UHGV virus genome: UHGV-0248979
Origin: a virus
Direction: 5' to 3' (one strand)
DNA: 64,000 nt
Each line of letters begins with the position of its first letter. Positions within the stretch are counted from its first letter, which is position 1. The position numbers and the translations under genes were made by a program. This document shows positions 11,381 through 55,922 of this stretch, one piece after another. The notes under the pieces were generated by a model. It ran no database searches. It worked only from the letters and a program-made list of their open reading frames with translations, and was not told the DNA's origin.

Positions 11381-11437
11381 AAAAAAAAACGTGCTACTCC
11401 TACCCTCTAAGAGGGTAGGAGGTTACTTTATTTTTTT
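11381..11437. terminator. bidirectional rho-independent terminator
   Basis: CTCCTACCCTC-TAA-GAGGGTAGGAG hairpin with A9 upstream and T7 downstream; sits between convergent genes. Confidence 0.65.
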
Positions 11438-15700: not shown

Positions 15701-17082
15701 ACAAAATTCTGGCTATGCTCCCCGCTTCAACGTACTTTGTTGGTGGTGAGACGTATGACGTACCGTTAATGTCGGTTAACGTCACTGAACGTTTCCCGAA
15801 TCCGAAAACGTTGATCTACGCAGGAATTTTTGTTGATATTGTTGACAACAAAGCGAAGTATGTTATCCACGACAGCTACAATCAGGCTGAAACGGATACC
15901 ATGACGCGCGTGGGAAGACTCGTTGTCAATGAGCTTTCCGAAGTGGACGTAGTGGAATTGCGTAACGTGACACGATTAGGCGAATTCCACGAGCTGAAAG
16001 ACCACATCGCTAATGACAACGCACACATTCAACGTTCTGCTTCGCGTGCAGTATTGGGGTTAAGTGATTTAACAGTAGGTGCACCTTGCTGGGCTTCTGG
16101 ACTCCAGGCAGTAGTGCGTGGTGAAGCAGATTGGCGTTATGTTGTTCGTGGACAGTATAAAGCCTTAGACGGGGTGAAATACGACCAGATCGCATCAAAG
16201 TGGATTTTCGATGCGAAAGGGGTAAGTGACAACGTTCACGGGTTTATTCACAACTTATTCCCGACTTTCAAAAACGCAGGAATGCGGGTAAGTTGGGAAA
16301 CAGAAAGCAACGCAAAAACCGGAACAGTGTTAGAAACTGTTTTAGGTTGTTGGAAGAACACCGACGGCGAGTTTATGCGGTTGTCATTACTTATCACTCG
16401 CGGTTATCGTTTAACTGACAGTAACGGTGAATATTGTTACGCAGGGTTCGGTTTGAACTTCGGTAGCGGGAAATCGGTAGTGGTAGGTTTCACACCAACG
16501 AAGCGTGTTACGCCTGCACCGTGGAGTTCATTACGACCTGACGTAACGTTTACCCACACCCGTGGTGCAAACAACGCAATAACGTTTAATGCATCGCTGA
16601 CTTTAGCTGGCACTGTGTATACTATCGTGGTGTTTTTATCCGCGACAGATAAATACGTAAGCTGTACGGCGGCAGGGGGAACTACGCAGAAAATCCCATT
16701 AGCCGACCGTTTAACCGGGTTCAATATCGAACCTATCGTTAATGATCCGTATACCCCTATTTACTACGGTTTAGGGGGACTTTATGAGGATGAGGTTCGT
16801 GCCAACATCCGCTCTACAGCAGACAGCGCAACTGCGAACAAAGTCTACGGTACGTTGTTGGACTATGTTAGCAACTATTCCTCATTAAATCGAGTACGCG
16901 TCATGGAATTGTCCGGTGTCAGCTCAGACCCCGAAACGCTTAATGCGTTAGTGGCAACTGAATTTAATAACAACCTGGCAGATTACGCTGCGTTACCGAT
17001 ACCTCCTTATCTTAACAAGGAGCGCGTAATGTCGTTTATCGACACCGACAATAAAGTGCAGGCGGTAATCATTCGCGATTAA
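12760..17082 (+). CDS. large virion structural-type protein (1440 aa), possible tail fiber/baseplate component
   Basis: AGGAG RBS; shares N-terminal P..PF(F/Y)...L.V....G.DY.L motif with the next three genes; size and operon context. Confidence 0.55.
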   Translation: MAVVLDPHFKKPGNKITGEAVAVIGTKYRMLVPAHAPFFTTSLVVKSGGKILTLGDDYVITHPYETGMLRTAYLIHGMIWIVNDKYKSNFTVDYHAVGCGEATQEQITAERELNKGKYPSACQWDTVIGDVYFPPVDIQFDWENWKGELELMQAIAGVGDSLGEVVSRLNPIARNTLDLEYRANSKVITSEQYAAYDNKGGFTYNTARHRYSLSYKATTFNNYSLSVKHRIPAILPDMTKLNPNEQIDWMLCYANGGASILRLQLKQRKISLVLTVAIGSGSSNYDYTLINGLTDDELKNDIDFSVTRQPGNGVYVIVVKTNKQTMDYTFNVDTPPDEFSAGYSKTDVAKWLKSKTNINLNWYAAENDNVQIRSLPGAPEPDVDNDVYQLIVKYHQLVEQLYRNAPAHEHVTRKDNPHTDTWGPIRALELNGIASDAALAYGKTKPQLTDYVNAKYPTQATLTAQKKLLRTSATKTANGTIGTLPGFTSFTTEVDPVSMSKYVSPRFSESYVSNGHRYHGALRYTGTKSGFATSFNAVPANLQDIDFIVTGRKTASGNEAVGTVSLRFYQKPGTNSGKFIQLTGEISAGKVGVKLELNGFSNPTPEVQYLSQAPNPAIPDGDFTLRFQLKRTGNVFDVVITINGKTYSARVNFTNMDAALEALENSHHFKSLISNVADNVTISSGNKGNTVTIKKAPDVVDGTRLGAQFVVDPKSIKFIGQGSTEVNAGNNPVTFQAGTNQLILYPDDRGLQWRGKKLLDPTTVAPYLPGNTAGGTGLFYGTSTTTVELTGSGIKASPFVATFILPTATDTTALAAWQLTDEFGTAENLAATPALIEKLDAEFTGKLVAVKSYINDMQLTSSVTIDKITFGLGNVANTPDVNLPISTAQRAELDKYSPKVHQHPFTAFGTGNATTAKRGLIKFGLDVDDATLALDGSVVMAQTSQIEKLENAVGGVDSGARVDIIRFGKSGDDLINVTVKDKILAMLPASTYFVGGETYDVPLMSVNVTERFPNPKTLIYAGIFVDIVDNKAKYVIHDSYNQAETDTMTRVGRLVVNELSEVDVVELRNVTRLGEFHELKDHIANDNAHIQRSASRAVLGLSDLTVGAPCWASGLQAVVRGEADWRYVVRGQYKALDGVKYDQIASKWIFDAKGVSDNVHGFIHNLFPTFKNAGMRVSWETESNAKTGTVLETVLGCWKNTDGEFMRLSLLITRGYRLTDSNGEYCYAGFGLNFGSGKSVVVGFTPTKRVTPAPWSSLRPDVTFTHTRGANNAITFNASLTLAGTVYTIVVFLSATDKYVSCTAAGGTTQKIPLADRLTGFNIEPIVNDPYTPIYYGLGGLYEDEVRANIRSTADSATANKVYGTLLDYVSNYSSLNRVRVMELSGVSSDPETLNALVATEFNNNLADYAALPIPPYLNKERVMSFIDTDNKVQAVIIRD

Positions 17083-34725: not shown

Positions 34726-35256
34726 TTAAGCAGTAAAGCCGTCAAGTTCACCGTCGGTGGTGGCCAGGTCAATACGATTATCAACAACTTTCGGCGTAAT
34801 TACGAAAGTTGCCATTACACCCGGTTTATAACGGAGGTTCTTTTCAGTAACGGTACAAGTTACCGTACGCAGAGTGACGCTATCGTGTTCGTCTTTCTGG
34901 TCTTCGGTGGTGTACTCAACGTCACCAGGTGCGATAGAGTCGTCAGGTTTTACTTTATTGATGTAAAACTGTAATCGGTCGCGTAGTTCGTTTTCTCCAG
35001 TCCAGAGAGCCAAATCGTCCGTTACCTCAATGCGTCCGACAACGCCAGGTTCCAGACGATCGTAATGCAGTTCGATTGCGCCTTTAAAATTTTCAGACTC
35101 TGTACGTGCGGTCATGGTAACTTTGGTATTTTTATCGCCCTTTTCAAGAGCGACAGGTTGACCAAAAGTTACCTCTTTATCAGTGACCTGATGCGGTAGC
35201 TCTGTGTTAGCAGCATTATAAAGCGCAACTAACATCATCTGGTTAGTAGCTGCCAT
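34726..35256 (-). CDS. hypothetical protein, small paralog family A (C-terminal GELDGFTA)
   Basis: Shares N-terminal and C-terminal segments with 35324..35854. Confidence 0.55.
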   Translation of the reverse strand: MAATNQMMLVALYNAANTELPHQVTDKEVTFGQPVALEKGDKNTKVTMTARTESENFKGAIELHYDRLEPGVVGRIEVTDDLALWTGENELRDRLQFYINKVKPDDSIAPGDVEYTTEDQKDEHDSVTLRTVTCTVTEKNLRYKPGVMATFVITPKVVDNRIDLATTDGELDGFTA

Positions 35257-35290
35257 TATCTTAAATCCTTAAAATGAAAGTTAAAGAAAT

Positions 35291-35320
35291 ATCGGGGGAG
35301 GTTACCACCCCCCCCCGAAT
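35291..35320 (-). terminator. putative hairpin/terminator containing C9 tract
   Basis: TCGGGGG...CCCCCGA pairing around a 9-nt homopolymer, followed on minus strand by TATTTCTTT. Confidence 0.3.
35308..35316. repeat. C9 homopolymer tract (intergenic)
   Basis: Direct read. Confidence 0.9.
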
Positions 35321-35323
35321 CAA

Positions 35324-35854
35324 TTACTCTTTAGGCGCTGGTGCGGTGAAGCCATCCAGTTCACCTTCCAAACCGCTCAGTGCTACTTTCTCAATAGCCG
35401 GAGGAGTAACTTTATACGTTGCAACAGTACCTGGCAGGAACTTCAGGTGTCCAGTCACAACAGTTACTACGTAAATGGTTTTGCCTTCTTCTTCACGGGA
35501 AATAGTTTGCAGGTCGTTTTCACCGAACTCGTCATCGGTGTACCCCTTCTCAACCATGGCTGCGTTAACTTTTGCCAGGATTTTCGTTGGTGAATCGAAA
35601 TCGGTAGTAGGTGCAGTTACTTCAACTTCACCAACGATGTCGCAGGAAAGACGAGTATAGTGGAATTCTTTCTCGCCTTTGAAGTTCTGGCTTTCTGCCT
35701 TGGCGGTCAGAGTAATTTTAGTGTTGCGGCCAGCTTCTCCGGTGAAGTCAGCGACAGCACTAAAGTCAACATCAGCTACGGTGAGAGCGGAGCTCAGAGA
35801 GCTGTTTTTAGTGTTAATAAGTTCGATAAGCTGCTGTTGAAAAGTTTTAGCCAT
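35324..35854 (-). CDS. hypothetical protein, small paralog family A
   Basis: Start moved to ATG 35854 (GAGGT RBS); MAKTFQQQLIELINTKN aligns with the 34726 gene's N-terminus. Confidence 0.55.
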   Translation of the reverse strand: MAKTFQQQLIELINTKNSSLSSALTVADVDFSAVADFTGEAGRNTKITLTAKAESQNFKGEKEFHYTRLSCDIVGEVEVTAPTTDFDSPTKILAKVNAAMVEKGYTDDEFGENDLQTISREEEGKTIYVVTVVTGHLKFLPGTVATYKVTPPAIEKVALSGLEGELDGFTAPAPKE

Positions 35855-35994
35855 TGTTTTTACCTCGTAAGTAGTATGGGTGGTTTGCATAGTATTGTTC
35901 GGATTATAGAAGTGGTGTTAATAGTTATGACAGGCGGCAGAAGGGTTGCTTGTAAAATTAATTAACTTTAACTTTTTTATAAAAGGTGAAAAGT

Positions 35995-36477
35995 ATGATA
36001 AAACGTTTTCTTATTGTTATGGTTGGTGTTTTTTCATTGGCAGGATGTGCCTTACAACCGAATGGTGACGGCCAATTCTCGACTGTGCCGGTGGAGCCAC
36101 ATGATATGGTTATTTACACCTGTATGGGTGCAGAGCAAGATTTTGCAAATTACAAACCTGTCGTCAGCTCGACTAATATAATGTTAGGGTCAGTAACTGT
36201 ACTCGATACTGGTGCTAACTGGGTAGCCACTTGGCCAAACGGCAAGATTGAGTCGCCGCAACTTTATAAAGATTTATTAGGTAAAGTTAATGGGAATATT
36301 GATCCTATCACAGGACAACGTTACTATCGTGTAAATGGCTTACTTTCAAAAACGCCAACGTTTGCGTATTCTACTTTAGAATATAAAACGGGTGATGGTA
36401 AAGGCATTACTTTCTTCCACTGTAAAGAAGGTGTAGCGTCTGACACTGGAACAATGCTCCATCCTGCGGAACAATAA
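35995..36477 (+). CDS. lipoprotein (lipobox LAGC)
   Basis: MIKRFLIVMVGVFSLAGC signal with lipobox; AGGTGA RBS; lone plus-strand gene among minus-strand genes, terminator downstream. Confidence 0.6.
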   Translation: MIKRFLIVMVGVFSLAGCALQPNGDGQFSTVPVEPHDMVIYTCMGAEQDFANYKPVVSSTNIMLGSVTVLDTGANWVATWPNGKIESPQLYKDLLGKVNGNIDPITGQRYYRVNGLLSKTPTFAYSTLEYKTGDGKGITFFHCKEGVASDTGTMLHPAEQ

Positions 36478-36520
36478 AAACTACCCTACTCCTTATCGGG
36501 AGTAGGGTATATTCATTTTA
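36470..36520. terminator. bidirectional rho-independent terminator
   Basis: TACCCTACTCC-TTATC-GGGAGTAGGGTA hairpin with flanking A and T tracts. Confidence 0.6.
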
Positions 36521-36592: not shown

Positions 36593-37108
36593 TTAAATCT
36601 CGACTAAGGCGCTCCAATCGATTGGTTTTTGCTTAACAACTTTCACAGTACCACGATTTGGTGACCAGAAAGTAATGTTAGGCTGGTTACGAACGTCAAT
36701 GTGCAACCAACTGATGTCACATTCAATAAAGTGAATGAACGGAAACTCGTCAGGGTTAGCAGCGATATAGTCGTGAACCTGTTTTACGGTGCTATCCAAC
36801 AACGTTGCATCAATGGCGTTACCGAATTTGTGTTGACTTCCTGAATCGGCGTAAAGCTGCAACGCACGTTGTTTATAACTACCACCCTTAGGCTTTTCTT
36901 GATTAATAAAGAAATCTAAGGTTCTTAGTCCGCGCTGTTGTGCGGCAGTTGAGTTAATCACCATTCTGCCGAAACGATTACGAATCTGTTGTAGGGAGAT
37001 CATTAACAACGGATTCATAAACCGAATTGCGGAATCGCCGTATTTGGCAATATAGGACTGTGGTACTAACTCTCTGAGTTTAAAGTTACTCGGATTTGGA
37101 TGAAACAT
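36593..37108 (-). CDS. putative zinc peptidase M15-like cell-wall hydrolase
   Basis: SQHKFGNAIDA fits the S.H..G.A.D motif of M15 peptidases, plus downstream WLHIDVR; assignment from memory of motif only. Confidence 0.35.
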   Translation of the reverse strand: MFHPNPSNFKLRELVPQSYIAKYGDSAIRFMNPLLMISLQQIRNRFGRMVINSTAAQQRGLRTLDFFINQEKPKGGSYKQRALQLYADSGSQHKFGNAIDATLLDSTVKQVHDYIAANPDEFPFIHFIECDISWLHIDVRNQPNITFWSPNRGTVKVVKQKPIDWSALVEI

Positions 37109-37751: not shown

Positions 37752-37867
37752 TACCCACACCTTCCCTTATAGAAACCAGAAAAATTCGTACCCACGCTTT
37801 TCGTCTTTACGTTTCCGTCCAGACGTTAACGCTTTCCACAATAGTGCTAAGAGTTTAGCAAACCAAT

Positions 37868-38458
37868 TCATTTTACTAACCCCGCCTTCACTACATAATC
37901 CGGCATTTCCCTGTACACGCGTCCGTACCAGCCGTAAGCGAATTTTTCATTCTTCTTACGCTTTTCGGAGATTTCCGTGTAGTAGGTTACCTGATGTGAG
38001 ATTAACGCAAAGATTAAGATGCCTAATCCCTCGCCTTTACGGTAATTCAGATAAGCATTCAGAGCACCTAGTGTTTTAGGTCCCATACCACCATCGGTGT
38101 CAATATCTGCGTAAAGTTTCCCTTCGTTATTTAAAACGTTGAGAATACGTTGTAACGATTTCACACAGTTAACACGGCCAGAGTTAATACCAAAATCAAA
38201 CATCCTGTCGGCGAGTATCGGCGAGATAGCGAAAATCTCATCGAGTTTAAGTTTCTTCCACCAACCACGATCGTAAATATCAAACGCTTGCGCACGGGTC
38301 AGATCTTTCATTCTTCCTTTGTACCCGTATTCGCGTGCAGTTGTCAGTGTTACCCCGTGACAGGTTTCCCCACCTTTATCGTCAGGGTCATTGACGTACC
38401 CACCCTCTAAATCTGTTTTTGATTCAATAATACCTTCTTTAGTCCAACGTTCGGCCAT
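37868..38458 (-). CDS. GH108-family lysozyme-like endolysin with C-terminal peptidoglycan-binding region
   Basis: N-terminal LEGGYVNDPDDKGGETCHGVT and downstream GKLYADIDTDGGMGPKTLGAL...GWYGRV match the GH108 plus PG-binding architecture. Confidence 0.7.
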   Translation of the reverse strand: MAERWTKEGIIESKTDLEGGYVNDPDDKGGETCHGVTLTTAREYGYKGRMKDLTRAQAFDIYDRGWWKKLKLDEIFAISPILADRMFDFGINSGRVNCVKSLQRILNVLNNEGKLYADIDTDGGMGPKTLGALNAYLNYRKGEGLGILIFALISHQVTYYTEISEKRKKNEKFAYGWYGRVYREMPDYVVKAGLVK

Positions 38459-38520: not shown

Positions 38521-38997
38521 TTATTTCTTCTTAGCGCGCGATGGCTTAGCTGGCGGTGTCTCGACAGACGGTTTACGCGCAACACGCACTGTAAAACCAC
38601 CGACCCAGGTTAGACACTCGGGGCGGAAGAAAATACCGTGCTCGATTGCACTGCCGTCTAGCGGCAACGCACCAACCTGCTCTACCCACACATCGTCTTC
38701 GGTAAGGGTTAAGCCATACTGCTCGTTAATTACAGGCAGCAAGTCCGCAGTCGTGGTTGCTGTCTCAACTAACAGTTTCGGCAATACGTTGTGGAAATAC
38801 AAACCTGCATCAATGCGGTTATACTGGAACGTTTGCTTATTAACATAACCGAGATTTTTAACCGGCACAACCGTAATTTCGGTGTTGTACGTACCGGTAC
38901 TTACGACGGGCTCACCCAATGTGACTTTGGCGGTGTCGAGCTCGGCGTCTGGGTTAGCCTTTTTAATAAGGTCGAAGATAGTTTCTTGACTGGTCAT
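38521..38997 (-). CDS. hypothetical protein, family A-like (158 aa)
   Basis: N-terminal pattern similar to 39011 and 35324 genes. Confidence 0.5.
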   Translation of the reverse strand: MTSQETIFDLIKKANPDAELDTAKVTLGEPVVSTGTYNTEITVVPVKNLGYVNKQTFQYNRIDAGLYFHNVLPKLLVETATTTADLLPVINEQYGLTLTEDDVWVEQVGALPLDGSAIEHGIFFRPECLTWVGGFTVRVARKPSVETPPAKPSRAKKK

Positions 38998-39010
38998 TAC
39001 TGTAATCCTC

Positions 39011-39859
39011 TTAATCTAAGAATCCCGGTAAGACCGAATTAGTCTTGGCTAATTCAATCTTCGACTTCGGACGATCGGTTCCGTTAAAGTGAATTAACAG
39101 TTTACCGGTCAGGTTAGAACACATACCGCTTAGGGCGAGTACCAGCACACGCGTGTACTTCGCATTTGCGCCTTCGAAACCTGCGGTAGGGCCATCGTAG
39201 ATAACCTTAGCACCGAACAAGTTATTAGCAGCGTTCTTAGGTACGCTTACCCATTTCTCATCAACAACGTTAGTCAGTTTAGTAGCTAACTCTACTAAGT
39301 CTACGGTGCCGTTGATGGTAATTGGATCAAGGTAATCTTTTTCTGCGGTGAAGTCAATTGGGTAAGAATAAACCGCAGCGTTACCTTTCTTAGTGGACGG
39401 ATACTCTACCAGGTTTTCTAATTGAGTAACAGGTAGCAATTTAGCCAGATCAATAGGATCGCGTAGCGTAAGCGTCACTTCGCCACACCACTCGTAAGAT
39501 TTCTCGTTAGCGGTAAGTTGGTGGGTTTTACCTTCAACTTTCGCATCAACGATATCCGATGGCAGAATATTTAAATCGTATTTTGCGTTGATTGCGTTAA
39601 GCAAATCTGAGGCGGTTACAACACCGTCGTTACCGAATACCAACTCACCTGTTAGGTATTCGGGCAAATTACGACGATGGTAAGTCACCGTTAAAGTAGT
39701 AGACTCATCGCCTTTGAGTTTAGAAGTCAGAACCACCTGGGTATCAACCCCAGTACCAGTAGGTTCGCCGATATCAACATCACTGAAGGTCAATGGCGGA
39801 ACAATATTGTTTTCAGTGTTGATGAGTTTTAGCAGTTTCTGTTTTGACGTAAGAGACAT
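39011..39859 (-). CDS. hypothetical protein, family A-like (282 aa)
   Basis: N-terminus KQKLLKLINTENN...FSDVDIGEP resembles family A. Confidence 0.5.
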   Translation of the reverse strand: MSLTSKQKLLKLINTENNIVPPLTFSDVDIGEPTGTGVDTQVVLTSKLKGDESTTLTVTYHRRNLPEYLTGELVFGNDGVVTASDLLNAINAKYDLNILPSDIVDAKVEGKTHQLTANEKSYEWCGEVTLTLRDPIDLAKLLPVTQLENLVEYPSTKKGNAAVYSYPIDFTAEKDYLDPITINGTVDLVELATKLTNVVDEKWVSVPKNAANNLFGAKVIYDGPTAGFEGANAKYTRVLVLALSGMCSNLTGKLLIHFNGTDRPKSKIELAKTNSVLPGFLD

Positions 39860-47399: not shown

Positions 47400-49520
47400 T
47401 TAAATAACTACCCAGCTTTTACCATCGGAACCAATCTGCATTAGCGTAATACTTTCACTGGTATCAATGGGTTTGGCAAGACCTTCTGTCCCACTCTTTG
47501 GAGTGATGAGAACGTTTGAATTTTCCGGTTTAACGGTGATCTTACCAGCCTTATTTGCCACGATCTGAATATTTCTGCCCACGCTATATTCTAGATCAGG
47601 AATAGTAAGTTGGCCGCCACGGTTGGTGGGTGGGAAATACACATAAGACGACACATCTTCCTCAGATAACACTATGCTACCAGAATCACGATTGACCGAG
47701 ATCTCAAACTTAGAAATATCGATATCATAGGCAGTAACTTTCGTAATATCCGTCAGAACCAATTCGTTCAAATCGGTCTTAGCTGGACTGTTCGCCAGAT
47801 CAAATGGAGTACCATTCGTACCGTCCAGCACAGGTGTGACTGTGGTTTTATTGGCACCAGGATAAATGATTTCAAGCGTATGCCAGTTATTATCGTACGC
47901 ACCAAAAGTTCCTAATTTCGCATTTTGCTTTTTATGATGCATCAGATTAAGATTCGTAGCGTCGGTCTGTAAGAAAAAAGACATTAGGTACGGGTTCGTC
48001 TCAGCCACACCAGCGTCAGCAAATGTAGTACCAGAAGGTAGGTCGGACGCGGAAATACGCCAATAAAGTCCTAATCCGAAACGATCTGCTGCTAAATCAC
48101 CTTTTAGTCTAAAAGTAACGGTCAGACGTCCACCGTAACGTATCATGTCCGCAGCAGATGTCATTGACTTAGTTACATTCCAAGGTTTCATCTTTACAGC
48201 CTTTCTTAATTCGACGAAATGCCCGTTTCCATCCTCAGAATCTTGCACGGTTACGTTACAATCAACGATATTGTTCCAACCTTGCCCTTTCAGGGAACCA
48301 TCCCCACGACGTCCGTTATAACCCACAGACTCTACTAATGGGGTATAGCTTCTTACCACATTCTTATTGTCTTTGGAGCTCTTAGTGTCGTTCTTCGTCA
48401 GGAACATTGCACCAATCGCTGTTCTTGATAATATCTCGGCAGCTATTCTCTCTGAGATAATACCGCGTCGTGCCCAAGAACTGAAATGGCTATTCCTTGT
48501 TTCAGACGTCCAGTTTTTAACAGTACGGGAGGCAGCACCGTAATAGGCCGCACCAGTGATATCAGGATCGTCAGTGGGATCATTAGTCGGTACACGTTGG
48601 CCATTATCGTCGTACATGAATGGAACAAAAAAGATATTTTTTTGTTCATTGTTACGATAATTACCGTATACGGTTTCATATTGGGCAGGATATTTTTCCT
48701 TCCAATAATAGGTAGTGTCCCCGCAGATCCATGGTACTTCGGCGGTGTCGTACTCGGGCATCTGAGAGAGATGGTCAGAGAGATCAGTTCGGAAACGCTC
48801 TACCATTGCGTTAAATAACGCTGGTTGTTGTGCGTATTGTACTTTAGTCAGATCATACTCTCCCTGCATCCACACTACAGCCAAGAGTTTATTTTTAGGA
48901 TTAACTTCTAGAGCTTTTTTGGTCCGGCTAACTAAATCTTTATAAAGCGGTTTCTCCACCCCCCATAGCATTGACGACTCAGTGGCTCCTGTGGCTTCAT
49001 CGAAGGTACCTTCTGCACCACCCGTGAAAGCAGAACCGCCGCGTGCGCAGGGTACTAGTAAGATACCGGCGTTCTTAGGAATATACGGGAGAAGACGCTT
49101 CGCGATATGTAGACCTTGACCCACACATCCGTATTCACCTTTGCTCAAATTGGCATTGGGATGCGAGTATTTGGACATATCTTGCACGTCGTGCAGACAG
49201 TGATCCGCTGGAATGACGTCGTTATATTTACAATCAGCCCCATTAGGCGTTACCTTCGCACGGCGCGCCATCTGTTTAATTCGCGGATCGGGAGCGTCCA
49301 ACGTCGCCGGTAGAGGCAACCCTTCACCATAACTCATCGCATTAGATTGCCCGGCTATAGGAATCACGAAGTAATACTCCGGCTCCGTCGTGCCCTGAAG
49401 TTTTGCAATATCAATTTTATATTCTTTTTCTTCCTTAGAAAGAAGAACTAACGCACCTTTGAGATCGCCAGAGAAATTGTCGAGTTCATGGATACGTTTC
49501 TTTCCAATTGGCTGACTCAT
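47400..49520 (-). CDS. tail spike/fiber protein with SASA/SGNH-type carbohydrate esterase-like domain
   Basis: N-terminal 40 aa paralogous to the 1479-aa fiber N-terminus; IAGQSNAMSYGEG motif typical of sialate O-acetylesterase-like esterases; GGAGAG RBS. Confidence 0.6.
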   Translation of the reverse strand: MSQPIGKKRIHELDNFSGDLKGALVLLSKEEKEYKIDIAKLQGTTEPEYYFVIPIAGQSNAMSYGEGLPLPATLDAPDPRIKQMARRAKVTPNGADCKYNDVIPADHCLHDVQDMSKYSHPNANLSKGEYGCVGQGLHIAKRLLPYIPKNAGILLVPCARGGSAFTGGAEGTFDEATGATESSMLWGVEKPLYKDLVSRTKKALEVNPKNKLLAVVWMQGEYDLTKVQYAQQPALFNAMVERFRTDLSDHLSQMPEYDTAEVPWICGDTTYYWKEKYPAQYETVYGNYRNNEQKNIFFVPFMYDDNGQRVPTNDPTDDPDITGAAYYGAASRTVKNWTSETRNSHFSSWARRGIISERIAAEILSRTAIGAMFLTKNDTKSSKDNKNVVRSYTPLVESVGYNGRRGDGSLKGQGWNNIVDCNVTVQDSEDGNGHFVELRKAVKMKPWNVTKSMTSAADMIRYGGRLTVTFRLKGDLAADRFGLGLYWRISASDLPSGTTFADAGVAETNPYLMSFFLQTDATNLNLMHHKKQNAKLGTFGAYDNNWHTLEIIYPGANKTTVTPVLDGTNGTPFDLANSPAKTDLNELVLTDITKVTAYDIDISKFEISVNRDSGSIVLSEEDVSSYVYFPPTNRGGQLTIPDLEYSVGRNIQIVANKAGKITVKPENSNVLITPKSGTEGLAKPIDTSESITLMQIGSDGKSWVVI

Positions 49521-49523
49521 CTA

Positions 49524-50036
49524 CTACTCTCCAAAAGTTAAGATTTTATTGTCAAACGTCAACACGACAGAATCATCACCGATGCCACACGGTGTTTCAT
49601 CTGGGCCGAAAACCACCACGGAGAACTGTCCTTTATAAGCGATGGAATTCGGAGCGATGCTAAGCGTTACCGCGTCTTTACCTACCGTGAACGACTGGTC
49701 GGTTAAATCGTCGGTTTGTAAGTTAGCACCACAAACGGCATTGACGGATTCGATAAGATCGTGTGCATTAAACCCTTCACCTCTTACTTTTACCAGAATA
49801 GGTTGTTGGTTTAACCACCGCTCTGCGGTTAAACGGTTGTAGTAGATTTGCAACGTTCTGTTTCCAGGACGTTTAATCTTTACAATGGCAGTGGAGTCAC
49901 GATCCATTTCATCACTGGTTTTTACGTCACTGACTTCAACCTCGTTCTCTTGCAAGTCAAGTTGGAGGTCATGGTTAACCAGTGAAATAACCATGTTAAG
50001 TGAAGTTAGTGATAAATCTGGTGTGAATTTTTCCAC
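49524..50036 (-). CDS. fiber-associated small protein, family B (GTG start)
   Basis: AGGAGG RBS then GTG; paralog of 56128..56688; immediately upstream of tail spike gene. Confidence 0.5.
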   Translation of the reverse strand: MEKFTPDLSLTSLNMVISLVNHDLQLDLQENEVEVSDVKTSDEMDRDSTAIVKIKRPGNRTLQIYYNRLTAERWLNQQPILVKVRGEGFNAHDLIESVNAVCGANLQTDDLTDQSFTVGKDAVTLSIAPNSIAYKGQFSVVVFGPDETPCGIGDDSVVLTFDNKILTFGE

Positions 50037-50090
50037 GTATGTTTACCTCCTACGGTTGGGGGTCATAAAATATTGACTAAAAAACATTCA

Positions 50091-50100
50091 CCCCCCCCCC
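50091..50100. repeat. C10 homopolymer tract (intergenic)
   Basis: Direct read. Confidence 0.9.
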
Positions 50101-50134
50101 ACGATTATTTTCAACCGCTTTCAGTTGAAAATAA

Positions 50135-50642
50135 TTAGCTAATTCTCAAATCACGCAGTGCGCCTGTCGATTTCATCACGTTTTGGAACGCAGCGCTGAT
50201 GTTATTAGTCCAGTAATAATGCTGTCCGTTAATAACCTGCTGATAGGCCAGCGCGCAGGTGTTACCACCTAAATTTACGGTAATGTTAGAGGCTCTGCCT
50301 CCTTGTAAGTAAACCGCTAAAGTAGGCTTTGCGTTGGCAACTATCGTCGTTAACTGTAACTCAATACCTACTAAAGTTCCCACCCCGCAGTTACCCGCGT
50401 TTTGAATGGTTCCCTGATTTTTCTGGTTTAACGGCCAGCTTGGTCCTACTGCGCCCCATTTCTTACCTAAAGAATCGCTATATGCAGCGGTTGCAATTTT
50501 ACAGCCCATAGATCGTCCCACCATTTGACTCATCATAAAAGGTCTACCCAATCCTAATTTACTACCAGCAGCGCTCATCCATTGTTCGCCCGTTTCGTTC
50601 TTGGCCGAAGAACCGACCCACGAACCGGTTACCCCCCCCCAT
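50135..50642 (-). CDS. family C small protein, N-terminus interrupted by G9 tract
   Basis: ORF track gives 50135..50578; upstream frame encodes GVTGSWVGSSAKNETGEQW matching paralog 50896..51441 N-terminus, but ATG at 50642 is out of frame across C9 tract 50632..50640. Confidence 0.45.
50632..50640. repeat. C9 homopolymer tract (G9 in gene sense) immediately after a start codon
   Basis: Direct read; paralog has G5 at the equivalent position. Confidence 0.9.
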
Positions 50643-50654
50643 CGCGATCTCCTG

Positions 50655-50885
50655 TTAAGATTTTCTACATGTTATTGAATCGAAAGCACCACGCCCAACC
50701 CAACGCCAATTATAATGATGATCAGCTTTATAAAGTGTGTATCTGCCCTGCTTTTTTACGTCGAAAATATTGATCGTAGTCTCTTCATTACCCAGCTTAG
50801 CTGTGCCGTAACATACAGGTTCGGGTAGTTGTTGACATCCACTTACTGTAAGCAATGCGAAACCCAGTAAAACTTTTCTTAACAT
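50655..50885 (-). CDS. small lipoprotein (76 aa)
   Basis: MLRKVLLGFALLTVSGC signal with lipobox-like VSGC; AAGGA RBS; embedded in receptor-binding module. Confidence 0.55.
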   Translation of the reverse strand: MLRKVLLGFALLTVSGCQQLPEPVCYGTAKLGNEETTINIFDVKKQGRYTLYKADHHYNWRWVGRGAFDSITCRKS

Positions 50886-50895
50886 CTTTCTGTCC

Positions 50896-51441
50896 TTAGA
50901 CTACACTTATTGAAATTGTTGCACCGTTCTGATTAAATAACCAGTTGGTTGCCGTCTTAGCCTCATAGCGCCGGACGCCGTTACTGTAGGAGTACGGTAG
51001 AAAAGTAATCTTCGTTCCGTTAAACGAAAGCGTAATATTCTGATTTGGTCCATTGGTTAGGGCCATGTAGATAATACCAGTATTTTGTACTTGGCTAAGA
51101 TGTGTGACGCTACAACCCAAGATCGAACCTGACACCGAACCGGCCGCATTTTGTGTTTGCACACGATTCGATACTGTAGAACCAGCACCCGTTGTTGTAG
51201 AGTTGTTCGAATACCCCCCATACGTATTTGTAATAGGAACCCACTGCGTGTTCGTAGCCTGCACCAAAACAACATAGGTTGATCGGCCTACAACGAGTTT
51301 AAGATCCTCTACGCTACGCCCGACCATCTGCGACATGTTAAATGGCGTGCTCAGTTTAAGCTTATTACCTGCCACACTCATCCACTCCTGACCGGTTACT
51401 GCCTTTGCTGAGCTTCCAACCCAGCCGGATGCTACCCCCAT
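50896..51441 (-). CDS. family C small protein (181 aa)
   Basis: GGAGGA RBS; paralog of 50135 gene. Confidence 0.55.
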   Translation of the reverse strand: MGVASGWVGSSAKAVTGQEWMSVAGNKLKLSTPFNMSQMVGRSVEDLKLVVGRSTYVVLVQATNTQWVPITNTYGGYSNNSTTTGAGSTVSNRVQTQNAAGSVSGSILGCSVTHLSQVQNTGIIYMALTNGPNQNITLSFNGTKITFLPYSYSNGVRRYEAKTATNWLFNQNGATISISVV

Positions 51442-51450
51442 AAATCCTCC

Positions 51451-51478
51451 AAACTAAAATAGGGGGATTACTCCCCCT
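51451..51478 (-). terminator. rho-independent terminator
   Basis: AGGGGGA-TTAC-TCCCCCT hairpin plus ATTTTAGTTT on minus strand right after fiber gene stop. Confidence 0.5.
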
Positions 51479-51482
51479 ATCT

Positions 51483-54400
51483 TTAATTCCCCTTGAGTTC
51501 TTTAAGCTCTTGGCGAAGAGTTTTCATGCCTTCTACTAACAACGCAATAACACCATTGTAATTTAGACGTAAACGTTTTTCGCCTGAAATGGCATCGTCG
51601 TCCTCGGACACAAGTTCAGGTAACGCTTCTAATGCGTCCTGAGCAATTAGACCTACAGAAGTCTGCCAACCGTCATCAGGATGCTGAATTTCGTACAAAT
51701 AACCGGTTAGTAACTCTAACCGATCCAAAGCTTTATCCAGCTTCACCAGATTACGTTTGTTACGACGGTCAGAACGAATCTGTACGTCGTTAAACGAACC
51801 GTTACCGTTGCCAGTAACGTTATGTCCAAAGTTTACTTGGCCGTTAGAATTATTAAAAGACAACGGGCGTAATCCGTTCCAGGAACCCGCTGCGGCTTGT
51901 CCGGCGTCGGTTACTAAGAAATAGGTATTGGCACCGTCGTTACGTAAAATAAAACCGTAGGTACCGTAAGCGATTCGAAAATCAGGGTATTTAGTGGCCA
52001 ATTTACCATTAACGGTTAAATCACCGCCTACAGTACCGCCCCCTGACGGTAACGCGCCCACTTCCGCAGCAGTTGGCTTGTTTCTCGTATTGTAAGCACG
52101 ACGCCAGCCTGGTGAGTATCCATCGCCGTTAAATACGTAGATAAACTCCGCATTAGTGAGTGCTCCGCCGACGCTCGTCGTTGTGGCGGTCGTTATACGG
52201 ATCGTGTAGTTGTTTGTGCTGTTGCCGTTACTAATGACTTCTATAACGGCCCCAGCTAACGGAATGACACCACAACCCGTCTCGCTGTGAGGTATGGACG
52301 CACTGGCGGCATAAGCCCACGCACAGCGAGCAACCCACGATCTTGTGGTAAATGCGCCGTTATTTTTCAATAACGTCACTAGCTGTGCTGTAGTTATTGC
52401 ACCGCCATTAGCGCCAGTTTCTAACCAACCACTAGGTGATGCCGGACAACCTATTTCGGCTGGCCCTAACGCTATATTTCTAGTGCCATCAAACGCAATA
52501 CCATTGATGGTTCTTGCGGTTTGCAACTTTGTTGCCGTGGCTGCGTTTCCGGTGGTCGACTGATTCCCTGTTTGGTTTACTCCAGGTAAACTGATGTCTT
52601 TAGTACCATCAAAAGCTACGCCACCTATATTTCGAGCAGTCTGTAGCTTAGTCGCTGTCGCCGCATTCCCCGTAGTCGATTGGTTACCGGTTTGGTTTAC
52701 ACCAGGAAGATTAACGTCTTTTGTCCCATCGAACACCACACCGCCGATCTTACGTGCGGTTTGTAACTTAGTAGCGGTCGCTGCATTACCTGTCGTATTC
52801 TGGTTGCCTTGCTGGTTAACGCCCGGTAAATTGATATCACCTGTACCGTCAAAGCTAACGCCTCCGATCCTGCGAGCGGTTTTCAGTTTCGTCGCGGTAG
52901 CGGCGTTGCCGGTAGTATCCTGATTACCTGTGGCATTTACACCAGGAATGCTATCACGGGCAGTATAAACTTGTGCCCAATCTGACCACGGCGCATCAGC
53001 AGTATCACGTCGACTACGAATATAAACGGGTGCGTGCGCACCGCTCGTCCCCGACCATCCGATTAACAGTTCCCCTTCGCCTAGCGCAGCAGAACCGCCC
53101 AAATGCAGTAAGTTACCATAAGCGGTTGGATAACCGTTATTGTAAACTTCGTACATCTGAATACCGGGTGTACCTTTGTTTGATCCAGTCAGTGCAGTAA
53201 CACGTCCACGTCCTACCAACGTGTTGATATTGATGTCTCTAGACCCATCAAATTTCACACCGTTGATGTTTCGAGCCGTTTGTAATTTGGTTGCGGTTCC
53301 CGCGTTCCCAGAGGTGTTTTGATTACCCTGTTGGTTTACACCAGGGAGGCTAATGTCTCCGCTACCGTCGAAACTTACACCGCCGATTAAACGGGCTGTT
53401 TTCAGTTTCGTTGCCGTAGCAGCATTGCCTGTTAACTCACCTGATAACCCTTTTGCAAAGGTCTGTTTTTCTGCCCACGTATGCGCTGCATTCAATACGG
53501 GCATCTGGCGGCTAGTAATAGTACGTTTACCCTTTTCACCAGCGACGCGAACAGCAAAGAAGCGATAGTTAGCAGTAGACACTGTACCACGCCAGACCAA
53601 CATACTCCGGCCAGTACCGGTGTCCTCCGACGCCCCTACAAGAATAGTAACCAAGTTACCGTCGATAACACCCCAATCCATTCCCGCAGGAATGTTTTTC
53701 ATGGTATTCAATGGTGTACTTATCATCTGGCCAGGAACGAAGTCGAAGGTTTGCCAGTCTAACGGATCTACCTTAGCAGCAACCCCACCGATCCCTAAAG
53801 CCAACGGGAGTGAATAGGATGTGAAAATCTCTCGCCATTCGCTCCAGGCATTTCCTGTACGAATTCGTTGGAACTTGCGACCTTTCGAAGTTGCGCCTGT
53901 ACCGTATGTGGTATAATTTTGTTCAACACCTGAACCGTCTAAGCGTAAGGTAACTTCGCAAACGCCTAGCAAGGTTGCGCCAGCAGAGTCTGTTAACGGA
54001 CCGTCTGTAGCCTCGCCGGTAACACTAAAGCGACCCGGTTTAGTTAAGTCGTTAAAGCTACCCTTATAGTAGGCACCGTCTACCTGATACCCAACCTGAA
54101 TCCAATCTTCCCACTGCGGATTAGACGAATCCCAAGTCGCAGTCAAACCACGGACATACATCGTACCACGACGAGTGGTGTAACGTTGTAAACGTCCATA
54201 AAGACCGCCTTCCATGACTTCTAATACGCCTTGCGCATTACCGCCCTCTTCAGGATAATGTCTGTCGAACACCGCTAACGAACTGGACGAGTTACGCCAG
54301 TTACCCATGTGCTCAGCGCCGCCTAAGGAGTTCAGATCGATCGATGTAGATAACGGGCGTACACCTGTAGTTACCATTCTCCACGGTGACCACGGGCCAT

Positions 54401-55922
54401 TAGTTCCGTTCCACGCGGCTGACAACATGCGGTTGTACACGTTACCATTACGGCAGGTAAAACGTTGCGCTCCACTGTAGTTGCCCGCTTTATACACTTC
54501 TAGATAACCTACCGCACCGTCTTCCGGGAAGTGTTTTGCTATTGATGCGTTTGTTGATGTCGACTTGGACCATGTTCCTGTGTAATTGGCATCTGGAGCA
54601 AATGTGTTAATATCAGCATCTGCGGGCATTTCACCACGGAAACGCAGATAGGTATCAGGAGATAGACCAATATTGCGAGCAAAGGTTTCTTTATTGGGGA
54701 TATCAGCACCGTTAGAGTTTTTCTGTAACGCAGAGTTCGCTTTATCTACAGTGGCTTTTAATCCCAAGAAATTGATGATATCCGCAGTTGTCCCTTTTGC
54801 TAACAAGGTTCTGGCGGTTTCTGTAAAGTCAGTTAACCCGACTTTATTAGTGCCAGTGAAATAAGGGAGCTTGTTTGCTGCGGTTGTGACTGCGGCAATA
54901 GCAGTAAGTAGTGGACTGATAGGTTGCTTCTGTGCAAGTTTCTCAGTAATCGTTGTTGCGAAGTTAGGGTCATTACCTAACGCCGTAGCTAATTCCGCTA
55001 AGGTATCTAACGTCTCAGGTGAAGAACCAACCAATTCCGCGATAGCAGCACGCACCCAGGCCGTTGTGGAGATGCTCGTGTCGTTCGAGTCCTTTGGGGG
55101 CGTTGGTGATGTCGGGTTACCCGTAAAATTCGGCGAATGTTTATCGGCTTTTAACTGTAATTCGTCGTTCAGCTGTTTAACCGTGGACGGTGTGGCAGCC
55201 TCCGTCACGGATTCGCTAGTCAGGGTATTGTTAAGTTTAACGATACCTTTACCGGTCGTACTAGCGTCAACTAAACCCTGTGCAGCGATTTTCTCCGCAC
55301 GCAGAGCGGCTGACTCCGAGCGTGTAGCTGCGCCTTCTGAGCTTTCTTTATCTTTCGTAACCTGCGCAGCAACCTTCTCCACCGCGCCCTTACTGGCCTC
55401 AATTGAAGCCGCAGTATTTGCGATACTGGTAGCGGTCTGTTGAACCTGTCCGGCCCGTTGCGTAACCGTTTCTGCTTTCTTAGTTACATCAGCCGCTACA
55501 GCTGTCACAGATTGTTCGCTTGCGGCGACAGCTTGAGCCTTCTCATTTACTGATTGTGAAACAGTATCTACGGCAGTTTTTGCTGCTAAAACTTCAGCGT
55601 GTTTTTTGTTAACCTCCGCAGTTTTAGTGGCGACGGTTCCCGCTTGCTCATTAACTGTGGAAGCTAAAGTGGTGGTCTGTTGCTTCGCTGTTTCTGCTAA
55701 ATCTTTAGCTTTCGTAGCTTCTGTTGCGGACTGTTGTGATTTGGCCGCAGCCGTTTGTGCATCAGCAACCGCACTTCTGACGGTGTCAATGTCCGCAACG
55801 ATCTCGCGGACTGGTAACTTATAATCTTTTTCGTCTTTCGAAAAAAGTAAAACGCCTTCACCGATATCCCCGGTGTACGGATGTAAGTCGTGTAAACGTA
55901 TTTTCTTTACCGCTTTAGCCAT
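51483..55922 (-). CDS. side tail fiber protein with C-terminal intramolecular chaperone (peptidase S74-like) domain
   Basis: Ala/Thr-rich coiled-coil N-terminal region, six 40-aa repeats GNAATATKLQTAR.IGGV.FDG, C-terminus SDRRNKRN...VGLIAQDALEALPELVSED matching the endosialidase/T5-type chaperone domain. Confidence 0.75.
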   Translation of the reverse strand: MAKAVKKIRLHDLHPYTGDIGEGVLLFSKDEKDYKLPVREIVADIDTVRSAVADAQTAAAKSQQSATEATKAKDLAETAKQQTTTLASTVNEQAGTVATKTAEVNKKHAEVLAAKTAVDTVSQSVNEKAQAVAASEQSVTAVAADVTKKAETVTQRAGQVQQTATSIANTAASIEASKGAVEKVAAQVTKDKESSEGAATRSESAALRAEKIAAQGLVDASTTGKGIVKLNNTLTSESVTEAATPSTVKQLNDELQLKADKHSPNFTGNPTSPTPPKDSNDTSISTTAWVRAAIAELVGSSPETLDTLAELATALGNDPNFATTITEKLAQKQPISPLLTAIAAVTTAANKLPYFTGTNKVGLTDFTETARTLLAKGTTADIINFLGLKATVDKANSALQKNSNGADIPNKETFARNIGLSPDTYLRFRGEMPADADINTFAPDANYTGTWSKSTSTNASIAKHFPEDGAVGYLEVYKAGNYSGAQRFTCRNGNVYNRMLSAAWNGTNGPWSPWRMVTTGVRPLSTSIDLNSLGGAEHMGNWRNSSSSLAVFDRHYPEEGGNAQGVLEVMEGGLYGRLQRYTTRRGTMYVRGLTATWDSSNPQWEDWIQVGYQVDGAYYKGSFNDLTKPGRFSVTGEATDGPLTDSAGATLLGVCEVTLRLDGSGVEQNYTTYGTGATSKGRKFQRIRTGNAWSEWREIFTSYSLPLALGIGGVAAKVDPLDWQTFDFVPGQMISTPLNTMKNIPAGMDWGVIDGNLVTILVGASEDTGTGRSMLVWRGTVSTANYRFFAVRVAGEKGKRTITSRQMPVLNAAHTWAEKQTFAKGLSGELTGNAATATKLKTARLIGGVSFDGSGDISLPGVNQQGNQNTSGNAGTATKLQTARNINGVKFDGSRDININTLVGRGRVTALTGSNKGTPGIQMYEVYNNGYPTAYGNLLHLGGSAALGEGELLIGWSGTSGAHAPVYIRSRRDTADAPWSDWAQVYTARDSIPGVNATGNQDTTGNAATATKLKTARRIGGVSFDGTGDINLPGVNQQGNQNTTGNAATATKLQTARKIGGVVFDGTKDVNLPGVNQTGNQSTTGNAATATKLQTARNIGGVAFDGTKDISLPGVNQTGNQSTTGNAATATKLQTARTINGIAFDGTRNIALGPAEIGCPASPSGWLETGANGGAITTAQLVTLLKNNGAFTTRSWVARCAWAYAASASIPHSETGCGVIPLAGAVIEVISNGNSTNNYTIRITTATTTSVGGALTNAEFIYVFNGDGYSPGWRRAYNTRNKPTAAEVGALPSGGGTVGGDLTVNGKLATKYPDFRIAYGTYGFILRNDGANTYFLVTDAGQAAAGSWNGLRPLSFNNSNGQVNFGHNVTGNGNGSFNDVQIRSDRRNKRNLVKLDKALDRLELLTGYLYEIQHPDDGWQTSVGLIAQDALEALPELVSEDDDAISGEKRLRLNYNGVIALLVEGMKTLRQELKELKGN
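52480..53450 (-). repeat. in-frame tandem repeats (about 120 nt unit, six copies in two blocks) inside the tail fiber gene
   Basis: Repeated peptide NQ.GNQ.T.GNAATATKLQTAR.I.GV.FDG..DI.LPGV; explains the spurious plus-strand ORFs here. Confidence 0.7.

What the first reader, a model, noticed from the sequence alone, without database searches (positions are those of the whole stretch)
35995..36477. Isolated plus-strand lipoprotein gene, candidate superinfection-exclusion factor
Clear lipobox (LAGC) and its own RBS and terminator, oriented opposite to surrounding genes; phage lipoproteins of this kind (such as T5 Llp or Cor) block the phage's own receptor.
Basis: partly seen in the sequence, partly recalled or inferred. 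Interest (0 to 1): 0.5.

Follow-up and report, generated by a model that had tools for sequence, protein, structure and literature searches.

The report
Conserved giant-phage outer-membrane lipoprotein gene
This is a real, self-contained gene for an exported lipoprotein shared by SPN3US-like giant phages; its function is unknown, it is unrelated to the known receptor-blocking lipoproteins Llp and Cor, and the same phage carries a genuine Cor gene 14 kb away.

Summary
ORF 35995..36477 (+) encodes a 160-aa protein with a textbook lipoprotein signal peptide (MIKRFLIVMVGVFSLAG|C). It has its own Shine-Dalgarno site and a strong hairpin terminator, and it is a lone + strand gene between - strand genes.

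It is the orthologue of Salmonella phage SPN3US gp159 (PHROG 9559, function unknown). The family is narrow and phage-only: 55 GenBank phages and 14 hits among 1.84 billion representative proteins. All members keep the lipobox Cys and two further invariant Cys.

A conserved TATGAC element upstream, shared with virion genes, suggests late transcription. SPN3US gp159 is absent from the virion proteome table.

Superinfection exclusion remains the most likely single role (about 0.35) but is untested. The gene is not linked to tail-fibre genes here, and its divergence does not follow host genus.

A true Cor homologue sits in the tail-fibre module at 50655..50885 (-). That gene, not this one, is the Cor-like exclusion candidate.

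Verdict: an ordinary but uncharacterised conserved accessory gene. Interest 0.3.

The parts
35926..35931 (+). TATGAC element, a candidate late (phiKZ-type TATG) promoter / transcription start, 66 nt before the start codon
   Evidence: (A/T)ATATGAC is conserved 50-60 nt upstream of the orthologues in the 6 SPN3US-like relatives aligned, inside otherwise unconserved spacers (Goslar keeps only TATG). In the window, 4 of 11 TATGAC copies lie in the 10% intergenic DNA, and each points at the next gene 27-69 nt away. The phiKZ late promoter is T(-3)ATG(+1) (PMC7598289). Promoter activity is inferred, not shown.
35983..35988 (+). Shine-Dalgarno sequence AAGGTG, 6 nt before the ATG
   Evidence: Read directly from the sequence.
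35995..36477 (+). Coding sequence of the 160-aa prolipoprotein (stop codon included); orthologue of SPN3US gp159
   Evidence: (phrog_9559, E 3.6e-65).
35995..36045 (+). Signal peptide (residues 1-17), ending in L-A-G of the lipobox
   Evidence: Sequence. Modelled as a helix in the first AlphaFold model. Conserved in the family.
36046..36048 (+). Codon of Cys18, the predicted lipid-attachment residue; +2 residue is Ala, so outer-membrane sorting is predicted
   Evidence: Invariant in all 17 sequences of A4. The +2 residue is A/S/T/V in all members. The sorting rule (Asp at +2 retains a lipoprotein in the inner membrane) is established knowledge.
36049..36474 (+). Mature protein: about 10-residue tether (residues 19-27), beta-barrel domain (about residues 28-145), disordered C-terminal tail (149-160)
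   Evidence: AlphaFold model md1ca69305880, pLDDT 84.4, pTM 0.77, core blocks 87-97.
36121..36123 (+). Codon of invariant Cys43 (first long strand)
   Evidence: Invariant in A1 and A4. A disulfide with Cys143 is inferred, not measured.
36421..36423 (+). Codon of invariant Cys143 (last strand; the shortest homologues end one residue later)
36482..36509 (.). Bidirectional intrinsic-terminator hairpin shared with the convergent gene 36593..37108 (-)
   Evidence: Equivalent hairpins lie just after the stop codon in SPN3US, SPAsTU, phiEaH2, ChrisDB and Goslar.

Best explanation
The gene encodes a non-virion accessory lipoprotein of SPN3US-like, nucleus-forming giant phages.

Predicted from sequence: the precursor is exported by Sec, lipidated at Cys18, cleaved by signal peptidase II, and sent by the Lol pathway to the inner leaflet of the outer membrane (Ala at +2). 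There it displays, on a short tether, a roughly 120-residue beta-barrel that is probably stapled by a Cys43-Cys143 disulfide.

Inferred: it is transcribed as its own unit, probably late, from a TATG-type promoter of the kind found before virion genes.

Most likely function, untested: it acts on the envelope of the already infected cell as an exclusion or protection factor. It would bind an envelope or entry component that is conserved across Enterobacterales, or a conserved part of related phages. This would hinder entry by a second phage, or stop progeny being wasted on infected cells and debris. This differs from Cor/Llp-type masking of one strain-specific receptor.

Confidence in the anatomy is about 0.9. 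Confidence in the exclusion function is about 0.35, which is the figure given.
For: Lipoprotein anatomy.

Narrow, phage-only family: only 14 hits in 1.84e9 representatives, all full-length ones with a lipobox and two more invariant Cys.

Confident beta-barrel model.

Own promoter-like element, SD and terminator, conserved in the SPN3US-like orthologues.

SPN3US gp159 is missing from the virion mass-spectrometry table, which does list its neighbour gp160 and gp150-155 (PMC5105663 Table S4).

A separate candidate spanin pair exists in SPN3US.

The gene always lies inside the array of DUF7941 virion paralogues. In Goslar-like phages these carry large variable fibre- or adhesin-like C-terminal domains. 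In Goslar the gene directly follows the tail fibre and tail-fibre assembly genes.

From general knowledge, the characterised non-spanin lipoproteins of lytic coliphages (Llp, Cor) are exclusion factors.
Against: There is no homology to any known exclusion protein.

The gene is not next to tail-fibre genes in this window.

Divergence equals that of neighbouring core genes and is independent of host genus, unlike a receptor-specific blocker.

Predicted late timing would not protect the early infection.

The phage has its own Cor.

No expression or phenotype data were found.
Confidence: 0.35

Rival explanations
1. The protein is an envelope-acting factor with a role other than exclusion. The barrel would bind a small hydrophobic ligand or a host periplasmic or outer-membrane protein, for example to stabilise or remodel the outer membrane, or to tune lysis timing late in infection.
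Confidence: 0.25
2. The protein is a periplasmic inhibitor or regulator of a peptidoglycan hydrolase. It would be spackle-like in logic and MliC/PliC-like in shape, and would neutralise the muralytic enzymes carried by incoming related virions or control the neighbouring GH108 and M15 enzymes.
Against: Pfam MliC does not match, and hhalign against E. coli MliC gives 12% probability, covering only the signal peptide. Phyletic patterns disagree: Goslar has the lipoprotein but gave no DUF1353 or M15 hit, and Cronobacter phages gave DUF1353 and M15 hits but no lipoprotein hit. Higher-scoring fold hits are unrelated barrels.
Confidence: 0.12
3. The protein is the outer-membrane subunit of a spanin (o-spanin), or another lysis-cassette component.
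For: It is an outer-membrane lipoprotein near muralytic genes with a late-type promoter. The phiKZ o-spanin is also long, at 120 codons (PMC12894885).
Against: No i-spanin gene precedes or overlaps it in any relative; the upstream neighbour is divergent or structural. The paper states that the o-spanin gene is invariably the next gene after the i-spanin gene. The mature part is a well-folded barrel, not a short proline-rich segment. There is no C-terminal transmembrane segment, so it is not a unimolecular spanin. SPN3US has a separate pair, gp204 (transmembrane segment plus helical region) followed by gp205 (lipobox LLTGC), close to an SLT-type endolysin gp198.
Confidence: 0.07
4. The protein is a virion component or assembly factor of the neighbouring DUF7941 head or fibre proteins.
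For: It is embedded in the DUF7941 structural array and shares a late-type promoter element with it.
Against: It is an exported lipoprotein, whereas virions assemble in the cytoplasm. gp159 is absent from the SPN3US virion proteome table.
Confidence: 0.03

Closest known systems
SPN3US gp159 (SPN3US_0159, AEP83992.1) and its orthologues: PHROG 9559, Asesino_174, phiEaH2 AFQ96623, Goslar gp88
   Same: It is the same family: phrog_9559 E 3.6e-65, with 34-57% identity over 89% or more of the length. The lipobox and two further Cys are shared. In the SPN3US-like phages the synteny and lone-strand orientation are the same, and the upstream TATGAC element and terminator hairpin are also shared.
   Different: It is only 48% identical to gp159 itself, and the closest sequenced isolates (SPAsTU/STsAS) reach 57%. 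The nearest relatives (89-95%) are uncultivated metagenome contigs. No member has a known function.
Cor (phi80/N15/T1 exclusion lipoprotein; NCBIfam NF047972, PHROG 1119)
   Same: Both are phage-encoded outer-membrane lipoproteins. An exclusion role is conceivable for the present gene.
   Different: There is no sequence match. It is 160 aa against about 78 aa, and it lies outside the tail-fibre module. The window has a real Cor at 50655..50885 (-), with E 2.6e-19 to NF047972 and 40% identity to phi80 Cor.
T5 Llp (FhuA-blocking lipoprotein)
   Same: Both are lipoproteins of a virulent phage. From memory, both genes stand alone and are oriented against their neighbours.
   Different: tblastn against 50,697 phage records found no T5-like hit. 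The mature protein is about twice as large. It is not adjacent to a receptor-binding protein gene here. The predicted promoter is late, whereas llp is an early gene (from memory).
o-spanins (lambda Rz1; phiKZ gp141.1)
   Same: Both are outer-membrane lipoproteins of lytic phages, expressed late.
   Different: There is no partner i-spanin gene upstream, the fold is a globular beta-barrel, and a separate candidate spanin pair exists in SPN3US.
MliC/PliC/ACP lysozyme-inhibitor barrels
   Different: Pfam PF09864 does not match and hhalign probability is 12%. The barrel is about 40 residues larger. The MliC loop motifs were not recognised.

Membership tests
Bacterial-type lipoprotein (Lgt/LspA substrate) | Positive n-region, hydrophobic h-region and lipobox [LVI][ASTVI][GAS]C within the first 15-35 residues | tested here: met
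   MIKR-FLIVMVGVFS-LAG-C18. The lipobox is conserved in all full-length homologues. Only 2 spurious matches occurred among 1301 candidate starts.
Bacterial-type lipoprotein (Lgt/LspA substrate) | Actual diacylglyceryl modification and signal peptidase II cleavage | not testable with these tools
   This needs globomycin sensitivity, palmitate labelling or mass spectrometry.
Outer-membrane-sorted lipoprotein (Lol pathway, Enterobacterales) | No Asp at position +2 after the lipid Cys | tested here: met
   The +2 residue is Ala here and A/S/T/V in all homologues. The rule itself comes from established knowledge.
PHROG 9559 / SPN3US gp159 orthologous group | Full-length profile match and conserved genomic position | tested here: met
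   E 3.6e-65 over residues 2-152. The gene sits between DUF7941 genes and the M15/DUF1353/GH108 block, as in SPN3US and SPAsTU.
Cor exclusion lipoprotein | Match to NF047972 / PHROG 1119 | tested here: not met
   The 160-aa protein gave no NCBIfam or PHROG Cor hit, whereas 50655..50885 (-) matches both.
Cor exclusion lipoprotein | Gene located in the tail-fibre / host-specificity module | tested here: not met
   Neighbours are DUF7941 head-type paralogues and muralytic genes. The tail-fibre genes lie at 47400..55922.
T5 Llp-type receptor blocker | Sequence similarity to Llp | tested here: not met
   tblastn at E 1e-3 or better against the phage collection hit only 55 giant-phage records.
T5 Llp-type receptor blocker | Adjacent to the receptor-binding protein gene | tested here: not met
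   Not met in the window or in SPN3US-like relatives. Met only in Goslar, where the gene follows the tail fibre and Tfa genes.
T5 Llp-type receptor blocker | Binds and inactivates the phage's own receptor | not testable with these tools
   This needs expression and adsorption assays.
o-spanin (two-component spanin) | Gene embedded in, overlapping or immediately downstream of an i-spanin gene | tested here: not met
   The upstream gene is divergent (35324..35890, -). The same holds, or a structural gene lies upstream, in all relatives. The criterion is as stated in PMC12894885.
o-spanin (two-component spanin) | Short, proline-rich, largely unstructured periplasmic domain | tested here: not met
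   The model shows 11 strands forming a barrel, with core pLDDT 87-97.
Unimolecular spanin (T1 gp11 type) | C-terminal transmembrane segment | tested here: not met
   The C-terminus is polar and disordered (GVASDTGTMLHPAEQ).
MliC/PliC lysozyme inhibitors | Match to Pfam PF09864, or profile similarity to MliC | tested here: not met
   None of the 17 members matched Pfam MliC at E of 1 or better. hhalign gave 12% probability, covering the signal peptide only. The control MliC sequence did match PF09864.
MliC/PliC lysozyme inhibitors | Eight-stranded barrel fold superposable on PliC/MliC | tested here: inconclusive
DUF2846 (label given to the pEa_SNUABM_43 orthologue in GenBank) | Match to the Pfam model | tested here: not met
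   That protein and the family members gave no Pfam hit at E of 1 or better.

The most novel reading that the evidence does not exclude
The SPN3US gp159 family is a new class of giant-phage envelope defence. It would be a late-made, outer-membrane-tethered beta-barrel that blocks a step common to all related phages, such as penetration of the wall by virion muralytic enzymes, or docking of the DUF7941 fibre paralogues. That would make it a clade-wide superinfection-exclusion or anti-'lysis from without' factor, with a fold and target unlike Llp, Cor or T4 Sp.
Probability: 0.2. Interest if true: 0.6.

Novelty: new member of a known kind. Interest (0 to 1): 0.3.

Why it matters
In the papers searched I found no envelope-acting or exclusion protein described for nucleus-forming giant phages. 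This family is kept across at least the Seoulvirus, Machinavirus, Erskinevirus and Goslarvirus genera (as named in the records read) and related Erwinia phages. It offers a single, easily cloned candidate, 483 bp and self-contained, for testing whether these phages exclude each other or modify the host envelope.

That question matters when such phages are combined in therapeutic or biocontrol cocktails against Salmonella, E. coli and Erwinia.

As it stands, however, this is a catalogued hypothetical protein with a confirmed lipoprotein signal and no functional evidence.

Tried and rejected
- Sequence searches for a named family found nothing beyond PHROG 9559: Pfam, on the protein and on all 17 family members; NCBIfam; and PDB by phmmer and by profile.
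- An exhaustive HMM search of 1.84e9 representatives found no bacterial relatives. Two hits, P0014 and P0021, are block-scrambled artefacts of gp159.
- The first AlphaFold model, from 9 sequences, was poor (pLDDT 67). It was replaced by a 17-sequence model.
- The MliC link was tested by hhalign and rejected as homology.
- The GenBank label 'DUF2846' was not reproduced.
- The o-spanin reading was rejected on gene context, fold and the separate SPN3US gp204/gp205 pair. PHROGs does not annotate that pair, so its spanin identity is my inference.
- No sigma-70-like promoter lies upstream of the gene on the + strand.
- The early-promoter-like 30-mer is not near the gene.
- The literature gave nothing on gp159. 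The SPN3US infection-proteome paper (J Virol 2019, PMC6384053) is not held.
- The cluster-member look-up failed.
- Searches for more Goslar-like contexts returned only near-identical Goslar genomes or short contigs.

Full report
**1. The observation**

The window holds an ORF at 35995..36477 on the + strand. Its product starts MIKRFLIVMVGVFSLAGCALQP. That gives a short basic n-region, a ten-residue hydrophobic core and the lipobox L-A-G-C with Cys at position 18.

AAGGTG sits at 35983..35988, six bases before the ATG. A GTG three codons upstream would overlap this site, and it is not used by gene callers or orthologues.

Five bases after the stop codon a 12-bp hairpin (36482..36509) is followed by a T-rich tail. 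It folds at -20.4 kcal/mol, 5.5 sd better than shuffles. It also reads as a terminator for the convergent - strand gene 36593..37108. Both neighbours are on the - strand.

A loose lipobox pattern matched 5 of 1301 candidate starts in the window. These were two starts of this gene, one other real lipoprotein and two antisense artefacts. The identical 160-aa product is called on 19 metagenome contigs.

**2. Where the window comes from**

The window is part of an uncultivated SPN3US-like giant phage. Gene order (two radical-SAM genes, gp162- and gp161-like genes, DUF7941 paralogues, three proteins of 1,400-1,700 aa) matches SPN3US gp156-gp171. The nearest GenBank isolates, Salmonella phages SPAsTU and STsAS, share only short stretches at 75% DNA identity. 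Metagenome contigs of 220-225 kb carry 94-95% identical copies.

**3. The family**

The protein matches PHROG 9559 (function unknown) at E 3.6e-65 and nothing in Pfam or NCBIfam.

tblastn finds it in 55 phage records, all giant phages of Erwinia, Salmonella, Escherichia and Proteus. These include SPN3US (gp159, 48%), phiEaH2 (55%), Asesino (57%), ChrisDB (50%) and Goslar (gp88, 35%).

An exhaustive profile search of 1.84 billion representative proteins found only 14 hits. None comes from a recognisable bacterial gene context.

In alignments of 16 and 17 sequences the lipid Cys and two further Cys (C43, C143) are invariant. The only exception is one partial, error-laden entry. The residue after the lipid Cys is A, S, T or V, never Asp. 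By the established Lol-avoidance rule this predicts outer-membrane sorting.

Two invariant Cys fit an oxidising compartment, meaning the periplasm. The disulfide itself is inferred.

**4. Structure**

With nine sequences the model was poor (pLDDT 67). With 17 sequences and the mature part only it was good: pLDDT 84.4, pTM 0.77, and core blocks 87-97.

It is an all-beta barrel of 11 strands. C43 lies in the first long strand and C143 in the last strand. The tail after C143 is disordered and variable, and the shortest homologues end one residue after C143.

Lysozyme-inhibitor barrels appear lower down: PliC-St 5.8, ACP 5.3 and PhiA 5.3. BFVD returned the family itself and a few weak phage barrels, one from RB49 named LprI-like.

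A profile comparison with E. coli MliC, whose recalled sequence I verified against Pfam, gave 12% probability and aligned only the signal peptide. So the fold is a generic small barrel and no family assignment follows.

**5. Expression signals**

The spacers upstream of the SPN3US-like orthologues are unconserved except for (A/T)ATATGAC, 50-60 nt before the start codon. Goslar keeps only TATG. The window has TTATGAC at 35925..35931, with its G 66 nt before the ATG.

TATGAC is under-represented in the window (11 copies against about 31 expected). Four of the 11 copies lie in the 10% of intergenic DNA, and each is 27-69 nt upstream of, and pointing at, the next gene. The other three precede the gp171 orthologue (11428..12690), a DUF7941 paralogue (49524..50036) and the gene at 61868..62374. 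A TATGAA copy lies 37 nt before the gp170 orthologue (12760..17082). SPN3US gp170 and gp171 are in the virion table.

In SPN3US the sheath, gp170, gp171, gp262, gp8 and gp173 genes have (A/T)GTATGA at similar distances. In phiKZ the only conserved late-promoter element is T(-3)ATG(+1), and all four bases are required (PMC7598289).

A quite different, highly conserved 30-mer, TTTCAGATATATATTAC(C/T)TAGGTGAGAG, occurs four times in the window and six times in SPN3US. It looks like the early, virion-polymerase promoter and is not near this gene.

I therefore infer late transcription from the gene's own promoter. This has not been measured.

**6. What the gene is not**

- *Not a virion protein.* SPN3US Table S4 lists gp150-155 and gp160 but not gp159 (PMC5105663).
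- *Not Cor.* The Cor models do not match it.
- *Not Llp.* No T5-like phage is hit.
- *Not a spanin.* No i-spanin gene precedes it in any relative, which the phiKZ lysis study gives as the invariable arrangement. The mature part is a folded barrel and there is no C-terminal membrane segment. SPN3US also has a separate, classically arranged pair near an SLT-type endolysin gp198. In that pair gp204 has a membrane segment, a helical region and a proline-rich tail, and is followed 10 nt later by gp205 with the lipobox LLTGC. That pair is unannotated, and its spanin role is my inference.

**7. Evidence bearing on exclusion**

*For:*
- It is an exported, non-virion lipoprotein of a lytic phage. From general knowledge, the characterised members of that class other than spanins (Llp, Cor) are exclusion factors.
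- The gene always sits inside the array of DUF7941 paralogues. In Goslar-like phages these carry large variable C-terminal domains resembling fibres or adhesins. In Goslar the gene follows the P1 S-like tail fibre and its assembly protein on the same strand.

*Against a receptor-specific blocker:*
- The gene is clade-wide.
- Its identity to orthologues (47-57%) is like that of neighbouring genes. It is no higher for Salmonella phages than for Erwinia phages.
- It lies 11 kb from the tail-fibre module of this phage.
- The predicted timing is late.
- A genuine Cor homologue lies in that tail-fibre module.

If it excludes, the target is more likely something common to Enterobacterales or to the phages themselves.

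**8. The hydrolase-inhibitor idea**

The convergent neighbours are an M15-type peptidase, a DUF1353 protein and a GH108 lysozyme with a peptidoglycan-binding domain. The peptidase is the orthologue of SPN3US gp158, which the SPN3US authors detected in virions but not in tailless particles.

A 29%-identical homologue on a metagenome contig is again convergent with M15 and DUF1353 genes. That contig is presumably from a related phage, since it carries DUF7941, DUF1353 and radical-SAM genes.

However, Goslar has the lipoprotein without detectable DUF1353 or M15 genes. Cronobacter phages have both without a detectable lipoprotein. The MliC link also fails at sequence level. I keep this as a minor rival at 0.12.

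**9. Verdict**

The gene is a real, conserved, uncharacterised accessory gene and a new member of a catalogued family.

- The anatomy is well supported (about 0.9): an outer-membrane-tethered, probably disulfide-stapled periplasmic barrel in its own late transcription unit.
- The function is open. Exclusion or protection is the best single guess at about 0.35.
- Some other envelope role is at about 0.25.
- A hydrolase inhibitor is at 0.12, a spanin at 0.07 and a virion role at 0.03.

Interest is 0.3. It is a cheap and clear experiment for people working on nucleus-forming phages, but nothing here is surprising to a specialist.

Noticed in passing
window 50655..50885 (-): A 76-aa lipoprotein (MLRKVLLGFALLTVSGC...) is a genuine Cor superinfection-exclusion homologue. 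It matches NCBIfam NF047972 at E 2.6e-19 (above cut-off) and PHROG 1119 at E 1.3e-25. It is 61.5% identical to Stx-phage Cor, 44% to N15 Cor and 40% to phi80 Cor. It lies between two 'tail fibre adhesin' genes, downstream of a 1479-aa tail fibre. None of the SPN3US-like isolates in the phage collection showed a Cor hit, so this looks like an imported host-range module in a giant phage.
   Followed up: partly
window 50632..50642 (-), upstream of ORF 50135..50578 (-): An ATG at 50642..50640, with a good SD (cAGGAGatcgcg), is followed by a run of nine G. In the window's frame it stops after 25 codons. With one G fewer it reads MGGVTGSWVGSSAKNETGEQWMSAAGSKLGLGRPF..., collinear with the N-terminus of the paralogous adhesin 50896..51441 (MGVASGWVGSSAKAVTGQEWMSVAGNKLKLSTPF...). 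This is either a homopolymer assembly error or a slipped-strand on/off switch of a tail-fibre adhesin.
   Followed up: partly
window 37767..37871 (-): A 34-aa ORF (MNWFAKLLALLWKALTSGRKRKDEKRGYEFFWFL) overlaps the stop of the GH108 lysozyme gene by ATGA. It is called on metagenome contigs, and small ORFs are annotated at the same place in phiEaH2, ChrisDB, Caitlin and SPAsTU. It may be a small amphipathic membrane-active partner of the lysozyme. It gave no family match.
   Followed up: partly
window 5573, 9962, 43100, 47344 (all - strand); SPN3US 56297, 65416, 94242, 113989, 165690, 223280: A near-identical 30-mer, TTTCAGATATATATTAC(C/T)TAGGTGAGAG, is conserved between the window and SPN3US. 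It has the AT-rich character described for early promoters read by the virion RNA polymerase of phiKZ-like phages.
   Followed up: partly
L011 33017..33976 (SPN3US 180017..180976, gp204/gp205): This is an unannotated candidate two-component spanin of SPN3US. gp204 has an N-terminal membrane segment, a helical stretch and a proline-rich tail. gp205 starts 10 nt later with the lipobox LLTGC. An SLT-type 'endolysin' gp198 and a small membrane protein gp200 lie 4-5 kb upstream.
   Followed up: partly
window 34726..35890, 38521..39859, 49524..50036 (-); L002 7346..9958; L017 1084..10341: The DUF7941 domain (PHROGs 1037/2935/3589/4862) is the N-terminal module of a large paralogue family. The paralogues are small in the window and in SPN3US, where their orthologues are head-associated. 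In Goslar-like phages the module is fused to big variable C-terminal domains (LRR/DUF285, and a region similar to receptor-binding proteins). It looks like a common virion-anchoring domain for exchangeable fibres or decorations.
   Followed up: partly
window 35292..35318 (-) and about 50085..50100 (-): Further runs of 9-10 G occur in intergenic DNA: TCGGGGGGGGGTGGTAACCTCCCCCGA, scored as a terminator, and CGTGGGGGGGGGGTGAATG. Such long homopolymers are unusual in a genome with 44% G+C.
   Followed up: no
proteins P0014 and P0021 (representative library): Two 'proteins' are block-scrambled versions of SPN3US gp159, with segments in reversed order. They are evidently artefacts of assembly or gene calling in the public data.
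   Followed up: no
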